Shown piece after piece: positions 40,005 to 60,280 of a stretch of DNA of 64,000 nt (the first letter of the stretch is position 1; every line of letters begins with the position of its first letter). Position numbers and translations under genes: made by a program. The stretch is taken from the NCBI GenBank assembly GCA_964106915.2, contig OZ066915.1; one strand, 5' to 3'. A model generated the notes under the pieces. The model worked only from the letters and a program-made list of their open reading frames with translations. It was not told the DNA's origin and did no database searches. Origin of the DNA: Podarcis gaigeae. Lineage: Eukaryota.

Positions 40005-40987
40005 TTTTTTTATATAAATAATTTTTATTAATTTTCACAACCAACAAAAGACAAGAAAGAAAACAGCACACACAAAAAAAGAAAAGAAATAGACATATAC
40101 AAAACACAAAAATGTGTGACTTCCCCATACCTCCCTTACACTGCATCCTTGTTTTGCAATTTTTCAGCAACCCTTTAGTCCTTTTTTCTATTTGTATCTC
40201 TCTCAAATTTCTTCACATTATTATTTACAGCTGTAATTCTCTGTTTCTTACCCCCTGACATCTTAACAGTCCACAATCTTACAACAATTTTTAAGGTATA
40301 ATTTAAATTTTTTCCAGTCCTCCTCCACTGTCTCTTTCCTCTGGTCACGGATTCTGCCGGTCATCTCCGCCAGTCCCATAAATTCAGTCACCTTCATCTG
40401 CCATTCTTCCAGAGTGGGTAGTTCTTGCGTCTTCCAATACTTTGCCAGAAGAATTCTTGCCGCTGTAGTTGCATACATAAAAAATGTCCTATCCTTTTTT
40501 GGTACCAGTTGGCCAACCATACCCAGGAGAAAGGCCTCCGGCTTCTTTGAAAAGGTCCACTTAAGGACTTTCTTAAGTTCATTATAGATCATTTCCCAGT
40601 AGGCCTTAATCCTTGGGCAGGTCCACCAAAGGTGGTAAAAGGTTCCTTCAAACTCATTACATTTCCAGCATTTGTTATTGGGCAAATGATAGATCTTTGC
40701 AAGCTTGACTGGTGTCATGTACCACCTATAGATCATTTTCATTATATTCTCTTTTAAGGCACTACATGCCGTAAATTTTATACCAGTGGTCCATAACTGC
40801 TCCCAGTCAGCAAACATAATGTCATAACCGATATCCTGTGCCCATTTAATCATAGCTGATTTAACCGTTTCTTCCTGTGTATTCCATTTCAGCAGCAAGT
40901 TATACATTCTAGACAGATTCTTAGTATTGGGTTCTAACAATTCTGTTTCTAACTTCGACCTCTCCTTCTGGAATCCTGCTTTTCTGT
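40005..40987 (-). mobile_element. L1-clade LINE, 5'-truncated 3' end with open ORF2 C-terminus
   Basis: About 240 uninterrupted codons ending at 40263, with CCHC knuckle CWKCNEFEGTFYHLWWTC; AATAAA and poly(A); 13-bp TSD CTGAGGCTGCTTT at 39992-40004 and 40988-41000. Confidence 0.93.
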
Positions 40988-41669
40988 CTGAGGCTGCTTT
41001 GAACACAGAGCAACACAAAGAGAGACAATCTTTTGTTTGTGTAGTATTTTCTTTAGATTGTCTGTTGCTTCGGGGGTTTTTTGTACGCTGCTTATCGAGA
41101 TATTTTTTAACATAATAAGCGGCATAGACATTAAATAATCAATACACCAAGTAATTCCACCCAGGAAGAAACCTTTCTCCAGCACTTGAGTATTGAATAG
41201 AAAAGTGCCCTGGCTTTCCCATTTTTTTGTTCCTTTGGCTGAAAAAAAACACAAACCTCAGCATCACAAAACCAAGGTGAAGCCATTTTCACACAACAGG
41301 AGCCATCACTGAGCTACTAATTAAGCAGAGCTAATCCTGTGGTCAGGGGCTGCTCGGCAGAGCAAATACAAAAGAAATCAATTTGCAATTGAACTCTCAT
41401 CGCCTAAACGGCAGGGAGAGGAAAGCTTTTATTTTCCATCGCAAGTTCAAACTTCCCCTGCAATGTTTAGCGTGAACAGGACTGGGGGTCAGGAGGTTGC
41501 TGGAAAACAATAGAATGGTGAATCTCACATTCAGATAATGTGCCAGCTACACAATGGCTCGTATTATTCCTGCTAACTGTAGAGGCTTCTGAGCTGGATT
41601 TACGCATTGAAAAGAAATGACTGCAGTTCACCGGCGCTTGGTTTTTTCAAGCAAGGTATTGCTATGAGA

Positions 41670-45400: not shown

Positions 45401-45471
45401 CTTGAAGGGAGTCATTGCTACCAAAAGTCTAAATCCATAACAATGGGCTAATTGAACCACTACAACCAAAC

Positions 45472-46073
45472 TGTGCTTGCCCCATGGGCTAACTGAGAGG
45501 CAAGGTCCAAGTCCAGTCCGAGGTCGAAGGTGCAATAGGGAGGCAGTCCTTAGAAGTTGAAGCTGGGTGCAGGGAAGGGAGTCGGGTGAGGTCAGGAGCA
45601 GGAAAGCAGGACAGGGTTCAGGCAGGAACTAGTAACCAACAATGTTGCTCCCGCAACTTGGGACTGGGCCTGGCTGGCTTTTATCTGCCCCGAGGCATAG
45701 GGCGGCCCCAATCCTCAGGTGACTCGCCTCTCCTGGCCTGGAGGTGAGCACTCCTCCTGCGGAAACTTAGTTCCCTCTGCCTCTCTGCCCTGAGCCTCTG
45801 CAGCTCAGGAGAGGCTGGAGGGTTACTGGACCCAGAGGCAACCTCAGCTTCTTCTGATGGGGTTGAGAGTGGAGCACCTGCAGGCAATGGGTCCTCCATC
45901 ACCTCAGGAGCCAGAGCAGAGTCAACTGGTGCCTGCACCTGAGGATCCAGCACAGGTGAGGACCCTTCAGGCTCATGCCCCGGCCCTGGCTCAGCTGTTC
46001 TGGAGGTGGGGAATCCTGTGCAGGCTGGGATTCCTCAGGTTCAGCATCTGAATCCGAATCCCAGGCCATCACA
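45472..46073 (-). mobile_element. Solo LTR, 602 bp (Gypsy-like or other LTR class)
   Basis: TG...CA termini with imperfect inverted ends (TGTGATGGCC / TGTGCTTGCC); perfect 5-bp TSD CAAAC at 45467-45471 and 46074-46078; TATA-like GATAAAA on the minus strand near 45679-45685. Confidence 0.85.
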
Positions 46074-49000
46074 CAAACCATTTACCAGTCATCTGTTCAC
46101 CAAAGCCAGATCCATGATATATCTGCTGCTGCTGCCCTGCAATAGTGAGGACTAATTAATTTCCACTTTTCTGGGACTATCTAAGGGATATAATGAAGCA
46201 ACTCATGGATAATAGAATCTAAATTGAGACTGCCAGTGATAACCTAACTCAACTCCTTAGAGGCAACTAAGACTGTTCCAAACTAAGTCTTCACACTTAA
46301 TGATGCCCGGCCTGTGCAGCAGGGTGAGCACAAAAAGCATGTTTACCTTTTATACCCAGAAACTTAAAACTAGAAAATAATTTTAAAACACACTACTTAG
46401 AGCACAATTTGTATTTCGGAGCATAGCACATGTCAAACCTTTGAGAATCAATAGGAAGGTTTTGCTTGAATCTAGAACACTCACTTCACAAACACTTTCC
46501 CTCTGTACTGAAGCTCCATTGTTGCCCATTTTCAAATGAGATGCTGGACTGAGTCAGAGTCTATGAACACTGCAATGCAGCTTGAAAAGTTGCATTTTTC
46601 TGCTATACATCACTGATCATGATGCTTCTCTTAACAAGAAGATCATTTGTTCTGCCCTTGCTGTGTACTGGTACACAAAATTACACAATACAGATTGTTG
46701 TGTTTGTTAAAAATATATCACAATGCAAACTTGTGCTGTAAGAGATTCCTAGAAAACAGAACTGCTTTCATTAACTGTTCACAATTGTAAGTCTTCCAAT
46801 CCCTAGGTTTGGGTCATCCTAAGGAGCTAGTAAGAATTATTATTTTTTACAATAGCCATGTTACCTAACAGACAGACAGGCATATACACACAACATTAAT
46901 ACACTTGATGCTCTGCCCCCCAAAATAATTCAATTCTATTCACTAAAATTGTGATATCCCATTTTACAAAACATCAAGCCTGATGTCCATAGTTACCTCA
47001 AGAAAATATTATACAATGCCTATCTGTAATGTCTCAGATACCTCCATGATGCTATAGCACAGCACACCCTTGCAAAGCAAAATGTACTTTTAAAAACATT
47101 GCAATTACCCTTCCACAGTTATGGTGGATGATGCAATTATTTACATACTTTTAATCCAGGACTGGACTTCATTATAGGTGCTTTGATTAGGAGCACACAA
47201 ACTCATAAAGGCACGTCTTGCTAAAGTAACAACAATATGCCACATGCCTGGGGTGATGGGACAATTGCTGGGAACACCCTTCTGCGTTGAAGAAAGAGTC
47301 GCATAAGGGCATTCTGTCTATTGTGTAGGCAAGCACCCACGCCTATCATGAACAGAATGCAAAATGTGCCCACACACCCTTGACTCACATGCTTGGTGGC
47401 GATCTTCCTAGGTCTCTCAAACACATCTCTTCAATATCCCATTAAACATTAGAAGTGATGCTGAAGTGTACCACATAAAAGCACAGCATAGGAAGCCCAA
47501 CTTAACTATTAGCTTCTGTTCCCTATAAACAGAGCTGTTGCACCATCTTCATATTCACAGCTTGTTCCAGTTCCCAGATGATGCACAATAAATCCCCATT
47601 TTCTGCTGCTCTATAACCAATCCGGCTAGTCATTCAGCCAAATATATACACACTAGATGCTGGGGAAAGAATAATCAAGGAAAGATCAAATTAGCAATGC
47701 TGAGTAACTTCCGTACTTGTCATTTCAGCTCATACAGACTCGTTTATTAAGCAAGCTTCTGTCTGCTGTAAAGAAATACATACCCATAGCTCTATTGCAC
47801 AAGAGTGGCTCGTATCTGTGAGTTACAGGCCTAGTTACATTCCAAGTGAAAAGAATTGCAAAATCCCAAAGTGCCAATCAAAGTAAGGTATAATCCCATA
47901 CTACTATGATGCATATTTATAAGCACAAATAAAGAGTAGATCCTAATAAAATACCTGCAATTATAACTATACTGCCAGTTCAGACAGCACAATCCACAGC
48001 CCTGTACTCCCATAAAAGCAAAATGCTGGTTAGTGAACATAAAGGAAGTTCTGGCCTAGAAAACATGCTGACAGTAAATCAAGAGAATGCATTTCTTGGC
48101 AAACTAAACGTTCCATATCTATAAGATTTAAACCAACTCAAGAAACCAACATAACTGAACAGAACCTTAATTTATTCAGAAGAGGAAATCCTCTTTTTGC
48201 CTTCTTAAAAATCCCAGGACATAGTCTGAGATGTGAAATTTTAGGATTGATTGGTTTAGGACTGTAACTTCATCTCAGGCTTCTGTTAATGGTGTGGATA
48301 CTTACTGCTATAATTATTGACGTTTATGTGGCCGCTCATCAGTAAAATTCTCTAGACACCTCTGTAGCTTCAAGCACAATAAAAGAGGCCACCTTGCCCT
48401 TTGGTCACAGAATGCACCCACTCAAGCTTCCCAATAGGGAATACAACCACTGCAAACCTGTATTGCCAGTGCCCTCCCCAATCTTGTTTTCCACTGCTTT
48501 TCCCTCATCCATTTTAGTGAGCAGAACTCTAGCCAAAGGCAGATTTAGGGGAGCACAACCGGTTGTACTGGTCGTGGAATTTTGGGGGCGCTGCAGGTTG
48601 CTCCACAACTATTATGTAGTATGGAAGGTGAGAGGCAGTGAGGTGCTGAATTTTGGCATTGCACAGGGCACCACTGAAATTTGAGATCCCAAGGCCCACC
48701 ACTGCCCTAGCTGTAACACACAGGTACGCAGATGACAGAATCAGGAAACCATGGCTGCTGCTCTCGCACTGCATCAAGGCATTTAAAGGTACATGCCTAA
48801 TGTTCTGGTTGCAATGCATACATCAGTATCAGATGGTGAAATTGGGGGGGGGGGGTGTCACTGCTGATTACCTGGAGGGAGGGGGGCAGCAGCAAGCTGC
48901 AAATGCACCAGCAGGAGTGCTGGACTGGCTCTGTACCCGCCTTGCCCCTCCCTCTCTTCTTTTCAGCAAGCAGCAGCAGCACTGACCAGAGGTCAGATGA

Positions 49001-53300: not shown

Positions 53301-53496
53301 AAGATATTAATGATGTGCAGGTGTCACCATTCCAGGATCAAATGCAAACAACAACAGTGAGCCATACTAGGTCAACTCACTATTCAACCCTAGGCTTGGC
53401 ATGCAGACAACTATCAGCTGATACGTTAAGTCCATTTTTAAAAATGGTATAATATACTGAAATTTTACAAAATTTCAGGAGTAAAGGAACATAAGA

Positions 53497-54160
53497 TTTA
53501 TGGGGGACTCCCTGGTCCTGAATGGGGCAACTGTAACCCTGAAGGAGCAGGTGCGCAGCCTGGGAGTTATTTTGGACTCACAGCTGTCCATGGAGGTGCA
53601 GGTCCATTCTGTGCCCAGGGCAGCTGTCTACCAGCTCCATTTGGTACGCAGGCTGAGACCCTATCTGCCTGCAGACTGTCTCGCCAGAGTGGTGCATGCT
53701 CTGGTTATCTCCCGCTTGGACTACTGCAATGCGCTCTACGTGGGGCTACCTTTGAAGGTGACCCAGAAACCACAATTAATCCAGAATGCGGCAGCTAGAC
53801 CGGTGACTGGGAGCAGCCACCGAGACCACATAACACCGGTCTTGAAAGACCTACATTGACTCCCAGTATGTTTCCAAGCACAATGCAAAGTGTTGGTGCT
53901 GACCTTTAAAGCCTTAAACGGCCTCAGCCCAGTATACCTGAAGGAGCATCTCCACCCCCATCTTTTGGCCTGGACACTGAGGTCCAGCGCCAATGGCCTT
54001 CTGGAGGTTCCCTCACTGCAAGAAGCAAAGTTACAGGGAACCAGGCAGAGGGCCTTCTTGGTATTGGCTCCCGCCCTGTGGAACGCCCTCCCATCAGATG
54101 TCAAAGGAATAAAGCCCTGTTTAAGGAAGTTTTTAATATTTAATATTTTATATTATTATT
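53497..54160 (+). mobile_element. L2 LINE ORF2 3' fragment
   Basis: VRSLGVILDSQL..LVISRLDYCNALYVGLP..IQNAAAR..HITPVLKDLH*LPV..TFKALNGLSPVYL..RAFLVLAPALWNALP; one W>stop; followed by (TAG)n. Confidence 0.92.
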
Positions 54161-54815
54161 AGTAGTAGTAGTAGTAGTAGTACTGCAATCTTATTGCTGT
54201 TTGTTAAGGAGCAAGACCCAACAAACACAATAGGACATCTGCAGATAAACATGTGTAGGGTTGCATTGCATTAACAACATATAGTAAATTAAGGACAGGT
54301 GGTGAAATAAGGTTATGTGTCACTTTCAAATTATAGGCTGCTGCAGAAGCTAAGATGTCTCTCCAGAGAAGGCCAAATCCACACACTGCCTTCCTTTTTC
54401 TCTGCACACCAAGAGGCCTGGTGTCACCACAACACGTACCAGGGAGCCTACTGCTCCTTCCATGGGCTGCCAGCAGCACCACAGCCAAGTAGCAGCAGGG
54501 ACAGGGGGTGGTTGGGCCTATGCAGTCATCTTAAGCTTTCAGCCCATGAAGTTGTACTCACCTCATGAGAACTCACCATATGACATACATACATCCTGGA
54601 TAGGGGCAGCATAATTTAGTGGCACTGGTGAGCACAGATATGCCATATGAGTTCAGGGCTCTGCTCAGCACCTCCTCCCATTAACTACTAAGTGAAATCA
54701 AGGGCAGCTTGCCCAGGACACCCTGCCCCCAAGCCTGCAGCTGGGCCTGCAGGTTAGTTCCCTTCTTCACCTAAGGTGCATAAGAGAAAACTGCAATTCA
54801 GCAGGACCCTGTTTA

Positions 54816-58615: not shown

Positions 58616-59279
58616 ACTGGGTTGAGGGGGAGGGAATGAGTAAGTTACTCATCTCATCATGCGCCGAAATGGGTCTTCAGCAGAGCATGTTTCTCACCCA
58701 TGGTTCATACATGGAACAAACACTTCATGGGGAAAGCAGCCCACCTACACACCTTGGGGAAACAAAGCTTAAGAATGTGGAGAGCTCTTGTGAGGTGGAA
58801 ACCACACAGTGGAAGAAATAGGCAGCTCCTCTTCACGCTGGAGATGCAGTTAAGAGGATCCCACCATACTGCTGGCCATACTGCTTGTAAATAAGAGACA
58901 CCCACAGAACAGGCACTCTGGTTACCTATACCAAAGGGAGCATCTTCACAGCACCCCACAAACACTGCACACATCACACAACAGCAGCAGCTCTACACAC
59001 TGCACAAGAGGCTGCACCACTCTGCAACCCACACCGCCTCCACATGCCACTTCCAAGGGAACCCCTTCGCCCAAGTTCCACGGCGAGGGCCACCAGGCAG
59101 GATGCACGCCTCCCTCGCTGCAAGGCAGTCAGCCAGCCAAGCTCAAAACACCTCACGCAAACCCGTGATCAATAATAATAATAATAATAGCAGCAACAAC
59201 AATCAAGTAACCCCACGCCGGCACCTCATGGAAGCACCCCAACAATTCCCCCAACCAACACTCTTCAGATCCCCACAAG

Positions 59280-60280
59280 GTGAAGAAACCCGTCGCAGGG
59301 GCGCCTAACAGCCACCGCAGAGCAAACTTGGCAAGACCCGAACTCGGGTCCAGCGCCTTCTCCCCTCCACATGCCACAGTCTGCCCACTGCCCTACGGGG
59401 CAGCCCTGTTGCCATCACCCGAGCCCACCGCCGCCCTCCCCACACACCCCCTGGCTGGACTGCAGAGCGCCCGCCCTCCCCCCTGCCCTGCCCTGCCCCT
59501 CACCTCGATCAGCTGGACGTAGCTGGCCGGGAACCAGCCGCGGAGCCCTTCGGCGGTCTCCCCTTCCCACCAGCCGCCGTCGGGCCCCGCCTGCAGGACT
59601 GTGAGCAGCTCCCCCGCCGCGAAGCGCAGCCCGTGCCGGTGCCTCTCCCCGGAGAAAGGGTACAGGGTCCTGCAGCGCGCGCCCAGCACCGGCAGCGCCC
59701 GCTCCTGCCCGGGCGGCGGCATCCCCTCGCCAGCCAGCCAGCGACTTGCCTAACTAACTCGGCTCTGGCCGCCACAGGTGCTGCTGAGCCGAGCGCCTCT
59801 GGCTGCCGGGAGCGAGCCTGCCTGCCTGCCTGCCTGCTCGCCTGGCCCCCCTCGCGTCCCTCCCTGTCAGCCCGGCCGGCGGATTGGCCGCCTCGCTTCC
59901 CCGCACCGCCCCCTGGGACAGGCGGACCGCCGCCGCGCCCGCCCTCTCACACGCGCACGCACACCGGAGTCCCAGCCAAGGCTGCACGCCCTCTCTGCAC
60001 GCGCGGAGAGGGGGACGGGACGGGACGGGGCAGCGGCGCCTCCGCCTCTTCTTCGCCCCCGTTGTTTCTCCCCGCCGCCCCTGGCAAACACGAGCAGGAT
60101 TTTTGCGCTTCTTCGCCGCCCACTTGCATTGTATCGGTAGGAATCCGGCGTCGGACTTACCGGTGAAATGGTTGTGATATACACCGAAAAGGGGGGAGGA
60201 GGGTGTTGAAGCACAAAATGCGTGTGAATTCATCGAACACGTGTGTCATGCAGGCACGCTTTCCGGGTGCGTGGTGAGTT
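59280..60280 (-). promoter_or_regulatory. CpG island / GAS7 promoter
   Basis: Abrupt GC- and CpG-rich segment spanning exon 1 in otherwise CpG-poor DNA. CCAAT on the minus strand at 59883-59887; GC boxes (CCGCCC) near 59906 and 59939. Confidence 0.85.
59504..59722 (-). CDS. GAS7: GAS7 coding exon 1 (SH3 domain), 73 codons, phase-0 end
   Basis: Translates MPPPGQERALPVLGARCRTLYPFSGERHRHGLRFAAGELLTVLQAGPDGGWWEGETAEGLRGWFPASYVQLIE, matching the recalled human GAS7 N-terminus (MSGARCRTLYPFSGERHGQGLRFAAGEL...GWFPASYVQLLE). In-frame TAG 10 codons upstream of the ATG; donor GAG|GTGAGG at 59503. Confidence 0.96.

What the first reader, a model, noticed from the sequence alone, without database searches (positions are those of the whole stretch)
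45472..46073. Solo LTR whose U3 region holds a ~129-aa ORF broken by a single 1-nt deletion
Seen: on the minus strand an ATG at LTR position 5 (46069) opens MAWDSDSDAEPEESQPAQDSPPPE. Restoring one base near 45998 joins it to (P)AEPGPGHEPEGSSPVLDPQVQAPVDSALAPEVMEDPLPAGAPLSTPSEEAEVASGSSNPPASPELQRLRAERQRELSFRRRSAHLQARRGESPEDWGRPMPRGR*. The stop overlaps the TATA-like GATAAAA at ~45681. The ORF spans 389 nt, about 65% of the LTR, with an acidic/Pro-rich disordered N-half and a basic helical C-half containing RRRSAHL. Known: U3-encoded accessory ORFs exist (MMTV sag, HIV nef), and short Arg-anchor motifs (KSHV LANA, CENP-C) bind the nucleosome acidic patch. Inference: this LTR family may encode a small accessory, possibly chromatin-tethering, protein.
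Basis: partly seen in the sequence, partly recalled or inferred. Interest (0 to 1): 0.7.

Follow-up and report, generated by a model that had tools for sequence, protein, structure and literature searches.

The report
Integrase tail hidden in lizard LTR
This is a broken leftover end-piece of a lizard jumping gene; in many intact relatives its reading frame is not a separate gene but the long tail of the integrase, and that tail ends in a conserved motif predicted to grip nucleosomes the way the host's HMGN proteins do.

Summary
In detail: a 602-bp solo LTR (TG..CA, 5-bp TSD) with a frameshifted U3 frame that is open for 129 codons in 32 of 51 close copies. The reading as a stand-alone accessory gene is not supported. 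The parents are Tf1/Sushi-type chromoviruses. Their pol frame (integrase, SH3, chromodomain) runs through the polypurine tract into the 3' LTR, in frame with this ORF in 44 of 94 junctions, the commonest class (13 of 19 among the youngest). The ATG lies in the terminal inverted repeat, upstream of the predicted transcription start. Between lineages the frame is under moderate purifying selection (dN/dS 0.5-0.65; basic block 13 synonymous against 5 non-synonymous changes); among solo copies it decays neutrally. The block carries RRSARL[QK]A, 7 of 8 residues of the HMGN acidic-patch motif; the window copy has His at the anchor arginine. Binding is untested. Against: 27 of 94 junctions stop pol at a TGATG overlapping the ATG, and the one linked copy of the window's own subfamily is out of frame. 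Plant CRM elements are the precedent.

The parts
45472..46073 (-). Solo LTR (602 bp) of a Tf1/Sushi-type chromovirus (Ty3/Gypsy); ends TGTGATGG ... CAAGCACA
   Evidence: parents
46074..46078 (-). Target-site duplication GTTTG, copy before the LTR
45467..45471 (-). Target-site duplication GTTTG, copy after the LTR
46066..46073 (-). 5' att site / terminal inverted repeat, holding the ATG at 46069-46067; in sister copies 7 of 8 bases pair with the 3' end CCAGCACA
   Evidence: Sushi att motif TGTYANR...CNTNACA in PMC3601003 (passage read)
45681..46069 (-). U3 coding frame = remnant of the C-terminal tail of Pol/integrase (129 codons in intact sister copies), frameshifted in this copy
45995..46004 (-). 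Stretch in which this copy leaves the frame (one base shorter than 29 of 29 neighbours)
45840..46069 (-). Acidic, proline-rich linker part (aa 1-77); length differs between lineages; aa 26-77 evolve close to neutrally (pN/pS 0.82-0.92)
45735..45839 (-). Conserved basic block (aa 78-112)
45741..45758 (-). HMGN-like hexamer; RRSAHL in this copy, RRSARL in most copies
45679..45685 (-). TATA-like GATAAAA, overlapping the stop codon
   Evidence: promoter function inferred
45645..45654 (-). GCGGGAGCAA, complementary over 10 nt to the primer-binding site of linked parents: predicted self-primer and start of R, 31 nt after the TATA-like box
   Evidence: criterion from PMC6317226 (passage read)

Best explanation
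The stretch is a dead solo LTR of a lizard Tf1/Sushi-type chromovirus, and its U3 frame is most likely the last 129 codons of pol: a tail behind the integrase chromodomain whose conserved RRSARL motif is predicted to tether the integration complex to the nucleosome acidic patch. Shown: parents with gag and PR-RT-RH-IN-SH3-chromodomain; pol open through the PPT into U3 and ending at the TATA-like box in many copies; frame-specific purifying selection between lineages, strongest in the basic block; neutral decay among solo copies. Inferred: the element RNA starts about 31 nt after the TATA-like box, so the tail is on RNA only as the 3' LTR copy; the tail stays on the processed integrase; an acidic, proline-rich spacer of free length (114-142 aa tails) lets an arginine anchor reach H2A/H2B while the chromodomain reads a histone tail; recombination between LTRs left the solo copy, which then frameshifted. 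My odds: tail of Pol 0.85; the motif binds the acidic patch 0.4. The window copy itself makes no such protein.
For: PPT-linked LTRs sit behind integrase and chromodomain, and 5 of 23 distinct loci were open for all 504 codons held upstream in the ATG frame. L061 has one 1370-aa frame from the zinc knuckle to the U3 stop. Junction class: 44 of 94 in frame, 27 one base short, 15 one base long, 8 other; 13 of 19 in frame among elements whose LTRs are at least 99% alike. The spread lies in a G run. The one linked copy of an older lineage (L297), which groups with the window subfamily's L080 at 97/95, is in frame. UniRef model P0001 (Podarcis muralis) has the same fusion, and one contig from another organism spans the junction without a gap (X17). 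A second clade about 40-45% identical in integrase reads 70-96 aa into its LTR with no ATG at the LTR start, and a further member does likewise. Selection: between lineages dN/dS 0.48-0.72 in the coding frame against 0.83-2.04 in the other two frames; within window-type copies 0.80-0.97. Same copy pairs: integrase core 0.14, tail 0.54, at dS 0.20. Older against window lineage: 36 synonymous and 49 non-synonymous changes, p=0.003; aa 78-112: 13 and 5, p=0.0001. Motif: RSARL in 53 of 55 young copies scored. HMGN binds the acidic patch through RRSARLSA with the last arginine of RRSAR as anchor (PMC12487698, passages), and such motifs work outside HMGNs (Dsup; yeast Dot5 RRSARIAT, PMC13347269, passages). 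3 of 13 distant chromovirus Pol proteins carry R[RK]SxR right behind the chromodomain and none before it.
Against: Only 44 of 94 junctions are in frame. Among long-linker copies nearest the window type 2 are in frame and 4 stop pol at the LTR start, and the single linked copy of the window's own subfamily (L080) is out of frame, so fusion is not directly seen for this subfamily. Selection is moderate, the pairs share history, and the aa 78-112 boundary was chosen after seeing the data. The hexamer's own codons show only 0-1 synonymous changes between lineages, so DNA-level (promoter) constraint on those 18 bases is not excluded. The triplet-indel test is weak: three lineage lengths (237, 267, 300 nt), and 4 of 6 common lengths of the non-coding control were also multiples of three. 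A six-residue basic motif can equally be a nuclear localisation signal. The second clade's tail has no RRSARL, a third family stops 41 nt before its LTR, frog relatives lack RRSxR, and 10 of 13 distant Pol tails lack the motif. No protein or ribosome data.
Confidence: 0.7

Rival explanations
1. Same anatomy, other job: the tail is part of integrase, but its basic block is a nuclear localisation signal or a non-specific DNA-binding helix, and the HMGN likeness is incidental.
For: All 13 distant Pol tails examined are arginine/lysine rich but only 3 have R[RK]SxR. The second clade ends in a different basic run. A C-terminal NLS in Ty1 integrase is in print (titles in the reference list of PMC3605345; papers not read).
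Against: S, A and L of the hexamer and the acidic residues of the preceding block stay unchanged across four lineages while the three residues before it vary; a plain NLS would not need that. The match to RRSARLSA is 7 of 8.
Confidence: 0.3
2. The ATG at LTR position 5 starts a free 129-aa protein. In elements with the one-base-short junction pol stops at TGA (LTR 3-5), which overlaps the ATG (TGATG), and ribosomes would reinitiate; G-run slippage would switch between fused and free tail.
For: 27 of 94 junctions are one base short, 4 of 6 among long-linker copies. A one-base deletion at the G run is seen in short-read contigs of another genome at depth 161 of 860 (X2), so the form is not only an assembly error. 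The ATG is kept in all four lineages, and aa 1-25 show pN/pS 0.08-0.47. Stop-start reinitiation is recalled from caliciviruses and some retroelements; not checked.
Against: One-base-long junctions (15 of 94) occur too, as slippage around an in-frame mode predicts. The youngest class is 13 of 19 in frame and the older lineage's linked copy is in frame. The ATG is explained by the terminal inverted repeat. The second clade has no such ATG.
Confidence: 0.12
3. The frame is a by-product of GC-rich promoter DNA; conservation reflects U3 enhancer or promoter sites, not protein.
For: Stop-free runs of this length arise in 32-46% of shuffles. The conserved block lies 50-150 nt before the TATA-like box. 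Linker pN/pS is 0.8-0.9.
Against: In aa 78-112, 13 of about 30 synonymous sites differ between lineages but only 5 of 75 non-synonymous sites. Only the pol frame shows dN/dS well below 1 between lineages. The frame is open to the TATA-like box in four lineages and continuous with pol.
Confidence: 0.05
4. This particular insertion has been taken over by the host gene as an exon or promoter.
For: It lies on the same strand as, and between, an SH3 exon and a WW exon. Automatic gene models elsewhere use such LTR frames (P0015, P0018, P0021).
Against: This copy is frameshifted and has His at the anchor position; window-type copies decay neutrally.
Confidence: 0.02

Closest known systems
Tf1/Sushi-group chromoviruses of vertebrates (V-clade: Sushi-ichi, Amn elements; grouping from PMC6317226, passages read)
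   Same: gag then PR-RT-RH-IN, Tf2-type SH3 and chromodomain; no tRNA-type PBS but a 10-nt complement inside the LTR; att ends like TGTYANR...CNTNACA; 5-bp TSD.
   Different: pol continues 114-142 codons past the PPT and fills U3 up to the TATA-like box. I found no description of this for vertebrate elements in searches; the main paper on the group (Butler et al. 2001) was seen only as a reference.
Plant centromeric CRM group A chromoviruses (PMC3059260 and PMC3605345, passages read)
   Same: [quoted passage not shown] Some Beta Bingo elements also extend into the LTR.
   Different: CRM-A has the CR motif in place of a chromodomain and a tRNA-Met PBS. Here a type I chromodomain (Y, W, Y present) lies before the PPT and the LTR adds a second module. 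No sequence likeness to the CR motif was tested. Copies lie on many contigs.
HMGN nucleosome-binding motif RRSARLSA and its mimics Dsup and Dot5 (PMC12487698, PMC13347269; passages read)
   Same: RRSARL[QK]A matches 7 of 8 positions including the anchor arginine, inside a low-complexity protein with an acidic region.
   Different: It is carried by a retrotransposon integrase tail; binding is untested; position 7 is Q or K, not S; the window copy has His at the anchor.
U3-encoded accessory genes MMTV sag and HIV nef (recalled; no call)
   Same: Coding sequence occupies most of U3.
   Different: Those are separate proteins with their own messages in retroviruses with env. Here no env-like frame was seen between pol and the LTR, and the frame is fused to pol in the commonest junction class.

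Membership tests
Tf1/Sushi chromovirus (Ty3/Gypsy) | TG...CA LTRs with Sushi-type att ends and short TSD | tested here: met
   23 of 30 loci have a perfect 5-bp TSD; ends fit TGTYANR...CNTNACA except at one position
Tf1/Sushi chromovirus (Ty3/Gypsy) | gag, then PR-RT-RH-IN order, no env | tested here: met
   L061 Pfam scan; window-subfamily element in L111 has the same order, decayed
Tf1/Sushi chromovirus (Ty3/Gypsy) | Chromodomain at the integrase C-terminus | tested here: met
   PF00385 E=7.5e-15; Y, W, Y cage residues present
Tf1/Sushi chromovirus (Ty3/Gypsy) | Self-priming: PBS complementary to at least 10 nt inside the LTR | tested here: met
   10 nt between the L111 PBS and the LTR site at window 45654-45645; 8 nt in L061; priming itself not shown
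Tf1/Sushi chromovirus (Ty3/Gypsy) | RT tree placement with named Sushi-ichi/Amn references | not tested
   No reference sequences were in hand; the integrase tree holds frog and fungal relatives only and its backbone is unresolved
Stand-alone U3 accessory gene (sag/nef type) | Frame separate from pol | tested here: not met
   Fused in 44 of 94 junctions, the commonest class; separate in the remainder, including L080
Stand-alone U3 accessory gene (sag/nef type) | Own message or own initiation | not testable with these tools
   The ATG lies about 415 nt upstream of the predicted start of R; no ribosome data
CRM group A | Polyprotein extends into the 3' LTR | tested here: met
CRM group A | CR motif in place of a chromodomain; tRNA-Met PBS | tested here: not met
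   True chromodomain before the PPT; PBS GTTTGCTCC
CRM group A | Concentration at centromeres | not tested
   No centromere map; copies lie on many contigs
HMGN-like acidic-patch motif | RRSAR core with the anchor arginine | tested here: met
   53 of 55 young copies scored; 23 of 36 intact window-type copies keep the anchor R, 8 have H and 5 have C; the window copy has H, so it does not meet this itself
HMGN-like acidic-patch motif | Binding to nucleosomes that depends on the acidic patch | not testable with these tools
   Needs a bench assay

The most novel reading that the evidence does not exclude
Lizard chromoviruses store a second chromatin-reading module in their LTR: the integrase runs past its chromodomain through the PPT and ends in an HMGN-mimic arginine anchor (this family) or a motif with CENP-C-like R-x8-W spacing (a second clade), so thousands of solo LTRs are fossil copies of a nucleosome tether; slippage in the G run before the PPT would switch between tailed integrase and tail-less integrase plus a free tether protein.
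Probability: 0.25. Interest if true: 0.75.

Novelty: new variant of a known kind. Interest (0 to 1): 0.5.

Why it matters
If the tail binds the acidic patch, it would be a retrotransposon integrase using the vertebrate HMGN motif, and a vertebrate counterpart of the LTR-encoded targeting domain of plant CRM elements, whose partner was unknown in the paper read (PMC3059260). It gives a small, natural peptide with which to test how env-less elements reach chromatin in vertebrates. In practice it also explains why solo LTRs of this family look like small genes and end up in automatic gene models. If the tail is only an NLS, the finding is a tidy structural note on a known kind of element.

Tried and rejected
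Complex prediction of H2A + H2B (own-genome histones) with aa 84-125 of natural copy L002: no verdict, score 0.01; PMC12487698 reports that AlphaFold 3 also fails on HMGN2. Pfam: no family for the 129-aa tail. Word-index search for longer proteins with tail aa 70-129: 0 of 285 candidates. HMMER over 1.84 billion representatives: 8 hits, 7 from Podarcis gene models and 1 unrelated repeat protein, so the tail sequence has no reach beyond these lizards in that library. Pattern searches for PPT-linked copies: window subfamily 14 matches at 12 places, 1 linked; older lineage 15 matches, 1 linked. Pairwise indel calling inside U3 gave 1 of 6 shared events as multiples of three against L002, because the aligner split one 30-nt difference in two (-10/-20 or -4/-26); anchor distances were used instead. 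Expression: no RNA holder listed. Two single-cell RNA runs of another organism gave 94 and 108 reads on the LTR, in both orientations, mostly only partly matching, with depth of about 1 across the junction; this says nothing on translation. No structure was predicted, so 'helical' and 'disordered' rest on composition. Considered and rejected: that the GTTTG after the LTR is the start of an internal region (parents begin GTTTGCTCC); the window continues GTTTGGTTG and has GTTTG on the other side too, so it is the TSD.

Full report
Observation. The minus strand of 45472-46073 is a 602-bp, 59% GC element that starts TGTGATGG, ends CAAGCACA and has GTTTG on both sides. It has no second copy in the window. 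The window is G000:C2:39432001-39496000 of a 1.51-Gb genome. Near-identical proteins are annotated in Podarcis muralis and P. lilfordi, so the host is likely a wall lizard. The LTR lies between an SH3 exon and a WW exon on the same strand; the name GAS7 for this gene is recalled, not from a call.

Family. A DNA search of the genome gave 3076 first-look candidates, of which 40 were scored and 30 fetched. 23 of 30 have a perfect 5-bp TSD, and 20 of the 29 neighbours have an open frame of 125-129 aa from position 5. In a larger set of 123 de-duplicated solo and 3' LTRs, 51 are window-type (50 unlinked, 1 linked) and 32 of the 51 have exactly 129 aa. These sets favour intact copies. The window copy is one base shorter than 29 of 29 neighbours at LTR 70-79. 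Mean pairwise identity over the first 400 nt is 93%. Length alone proves little: 129 stop-free codons arise in 32-46% of shuffles, though an open frame from the LTR start in a given frame arises in under 2%.

Parents. A search for a G run before the LTR start gave 289 raw matches, with double counts. They sit behind integrase and a chromodomain. Full-length copies of about 5.75 kb have gag (DUF4939, Ty3 capsid) and PR-RT-RH-IN-SH3-chromodomain, with LTR pairs up to 99% alike. The PBS is no tRNA site; it is complementary over 10 nt to the LTR at window 45654-45645, 31 nt after the TATA-like box. That meets the self-priming criterion used in PMC6317226 (passages read) and is typical of the Tf1/Sushi group. 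By inference this site is the start of R, so the whole frame lies in U3. The ATG is part of the terminal inverted repeat, which fits the Sushi att motif at all but one position (PMC3601003, passages read).

The key result. The U3 frame continues pol. In L061 a single 1370-aa frame runs from the zinc knuckle through the chromodomain and PPT to the U3 stop. Of 94 junctions, 44 are in frame, 27 one base short, 15 one base long and 8 other (some C32 copies may be duplicates). Of 66 elements dated by their LTRs, 19 have pairs at least 99% alike and 13 of these are in frame. The spread lies in a G run just before the PPT. In the short class pol stops at TGA (LTR 3-5), overlapping the ATG. Most linked copies belong to younger sister lineages (114-119-aa tails, about 70-77% identical to the window LTR over U3). 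Among six long-linker copies nearer the window type, 2 are in frame and 4 stop at the LTR start. L080, the only linked copy of the window's own subfamily found, is out of frame. L297, the only linked copy of an older 142-aa lineage, is in frame and groups with L080. Fusion is thus seen in both younger and older relatives but is inferred, not shown, for the window's subfamily. Outside this assembly, UniRef model P0001 has the fusion, a contig of another organism spans the junction without a gap, and short-read contigs of a third show the short form as a minority (161 of 860 depth).

Generality. A Pfam SH3_Tf2-1 search brought up other chromovirus families (150 of 3022 candidates scored, 30 fetched). 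A very young family with a 1331-aa frame reads 96 aa into its LTR; relatives read 70, 83 and 95 aa; none has an ATG at the LTR start. A further member in L111 does the same. All have acidic then basic tails without likeness to this one. A third family stops 41 nt before its LTR, so the trait is not universal.

Selection. With 90 of 123 copies (those with intact frames), pairwise dN/dS among window-type copies is 0.80-0.97, as expected for decay after insertion. Between lineages it is 0.48-0.72 in the pol frame and 0.83-2.04 in the other two frames. Variants shared by four or more copies are 38 synonymous and 66 non-synonymous, against 43 and 144 for singletons (p=0.02). In 24 pairs from 8 x 3 copies the integrase core gives 0.14 and the tail 0.54 at equal dS. 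Lineage-level counts: young against window 26 and 37, p=0.016; older against window 36 and 49, p=0.003; linker aa 26-77 pN/pS 0.92; basic block aa 78-112 13 and 5, p=0.0001 (16 of 27 older copies used; boundary chosen after seeing the data). Synonymous sites in the block are free to change, which argues for protein rather than promoter constraint, except at the hexamer itself, where they barely change. The triplet-indel test is weak.

Motif. 53 of 55 young copies scored read RSARL. Among 36 intact window-type copies the anchor position is R in 23, H in 8 and C in 5, the pattern CpG decay would give (inference); the window copy has H. RRSARL[QK]A matches the HMGN core RRSARLSA at 7 of 8 positions. 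Cryo-EM shows that this motif binds the acidic patch with the last R of RRSAR as anchor (PMC12487698, passages read), and related motifs work in tardigrade Dsup and yeast Dot5 (PMC13347269, passages read). RRSARL did not occur in 126,596 residues of six-frame translation of the rest of the window. Among 13 distant chromovirus Pol proteins found with a chromodomain query that left the motif out, 3 carry R[RK]SxR just behind the chromodomain (the query protein is one of the 3, and was chosen for having it) and 10 carry other basic runs.

Mechanism. Best reading: pol is translated to the end of U3; the processed integrase likely keeps a flexible acidic spacer and an arginine anchor behind its chromodomain; this would hold the integration complex on nucleosomes. 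Rivals: NLS or plain DNA binding (0.3), a free protein by stop-start reinitiation (0.12), promoter by-product (0.05), host use of this copy (0.02). The first rival shares the anatomy of the best reading, so the figures do not sum to one. The solo copy in the window is a fossil either way.

Comparison and novelty. Extension of the polyprotein into the 3' LTR with a targeting motif is known for plant CRM group A (PMC3059260, PMC3605345; passages read), but there it replaces the chromodomain. Nine paper searches (listings seen) gave no description of such a tail in vertebrate chromoviruses or of an HMGN-like motif in a retrotransposon integrase. The fused protein is already in UniRef as an automatic model.

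Verdict. Observation confirmed; interpretation partly supported; a new variant of a known kind; interest 0.5.

Noticed in passing
L235, L242, L245, L254, L255 (locus 715-1686, minus for L235); L244, L251, L252, L253; L111 (reverse strand 3-1901): A second chromovirus clade, with many near-identical copies holding a 1331-aa frame, also reads 70-130 aa into its 3' LTR. The tails end in a basic run followed by L-[LA]-x-W with an arginine nine residues before the W, the spacing of CENP-C R521/W530 (PMC6776904, passages read). The likeness is by eye only.
   Followed up: partly
G000:C32 (29.5 Mb): 31 of the 40 best integrase-linked hits lie on this one contig, 2% of the genome, as expected of a W-like non-recombining chromosome (inference).
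   Followed up: no
PPT junction of linked elements, e.g. L061:7960-8005: A G run of variable length before the PPT decides whether pol fuses to the tail or stops at a TGA overlapping the ATG; a possible slippage switch.
   Followed up: partly
P0015/P0022 (XP_077791897.1, LOC114604991), P0018, P0021: Automatic gene models in Podarcis contain the LTR frame as a first or inner exon; possible co-option or annotation artefact.
   Followed up: no
P0013, P0046, P0049 (unnamed records related to Eimeria media elements); P0012: Distant chromovirus Pol proteins end in RRSARL, RRSTRI or RKSARL right after the chromodomain; P0012 ends in an AT-hook-like RGRGRP (label recalled).
   Followed up: partly
L136-L139 (G000:C29:7466889-7496310): Four equally scoring window-type LTR copies spaced about 9.6 kb apart: a tandem segmental repeat.
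   Followed up: no
L026:1501-2923: Two LTRs of different subfamilies (91% and 74% like the window LTR) lie about 360 bp apart in opposite orientation.
   Followed up: no
window 59396-59749 (-) and 40-423 (-): SH3 and WW exons of a host gene on the same strand as the LTR; GAS7-like by recall. A GC-rich island lies at 59001-60000 (68% GC).
   Followed up: partly
window 40263-41138 (-) and 53485-54162 (+): A 291-aa frame and shorter frames that look like LINE ORF2 ends (recalled); no Pfam hit at E 0.01 for the two scanned. Many 220-360-bp SINE- or MITE-like repeats are spread over the window.
   Followed up: no
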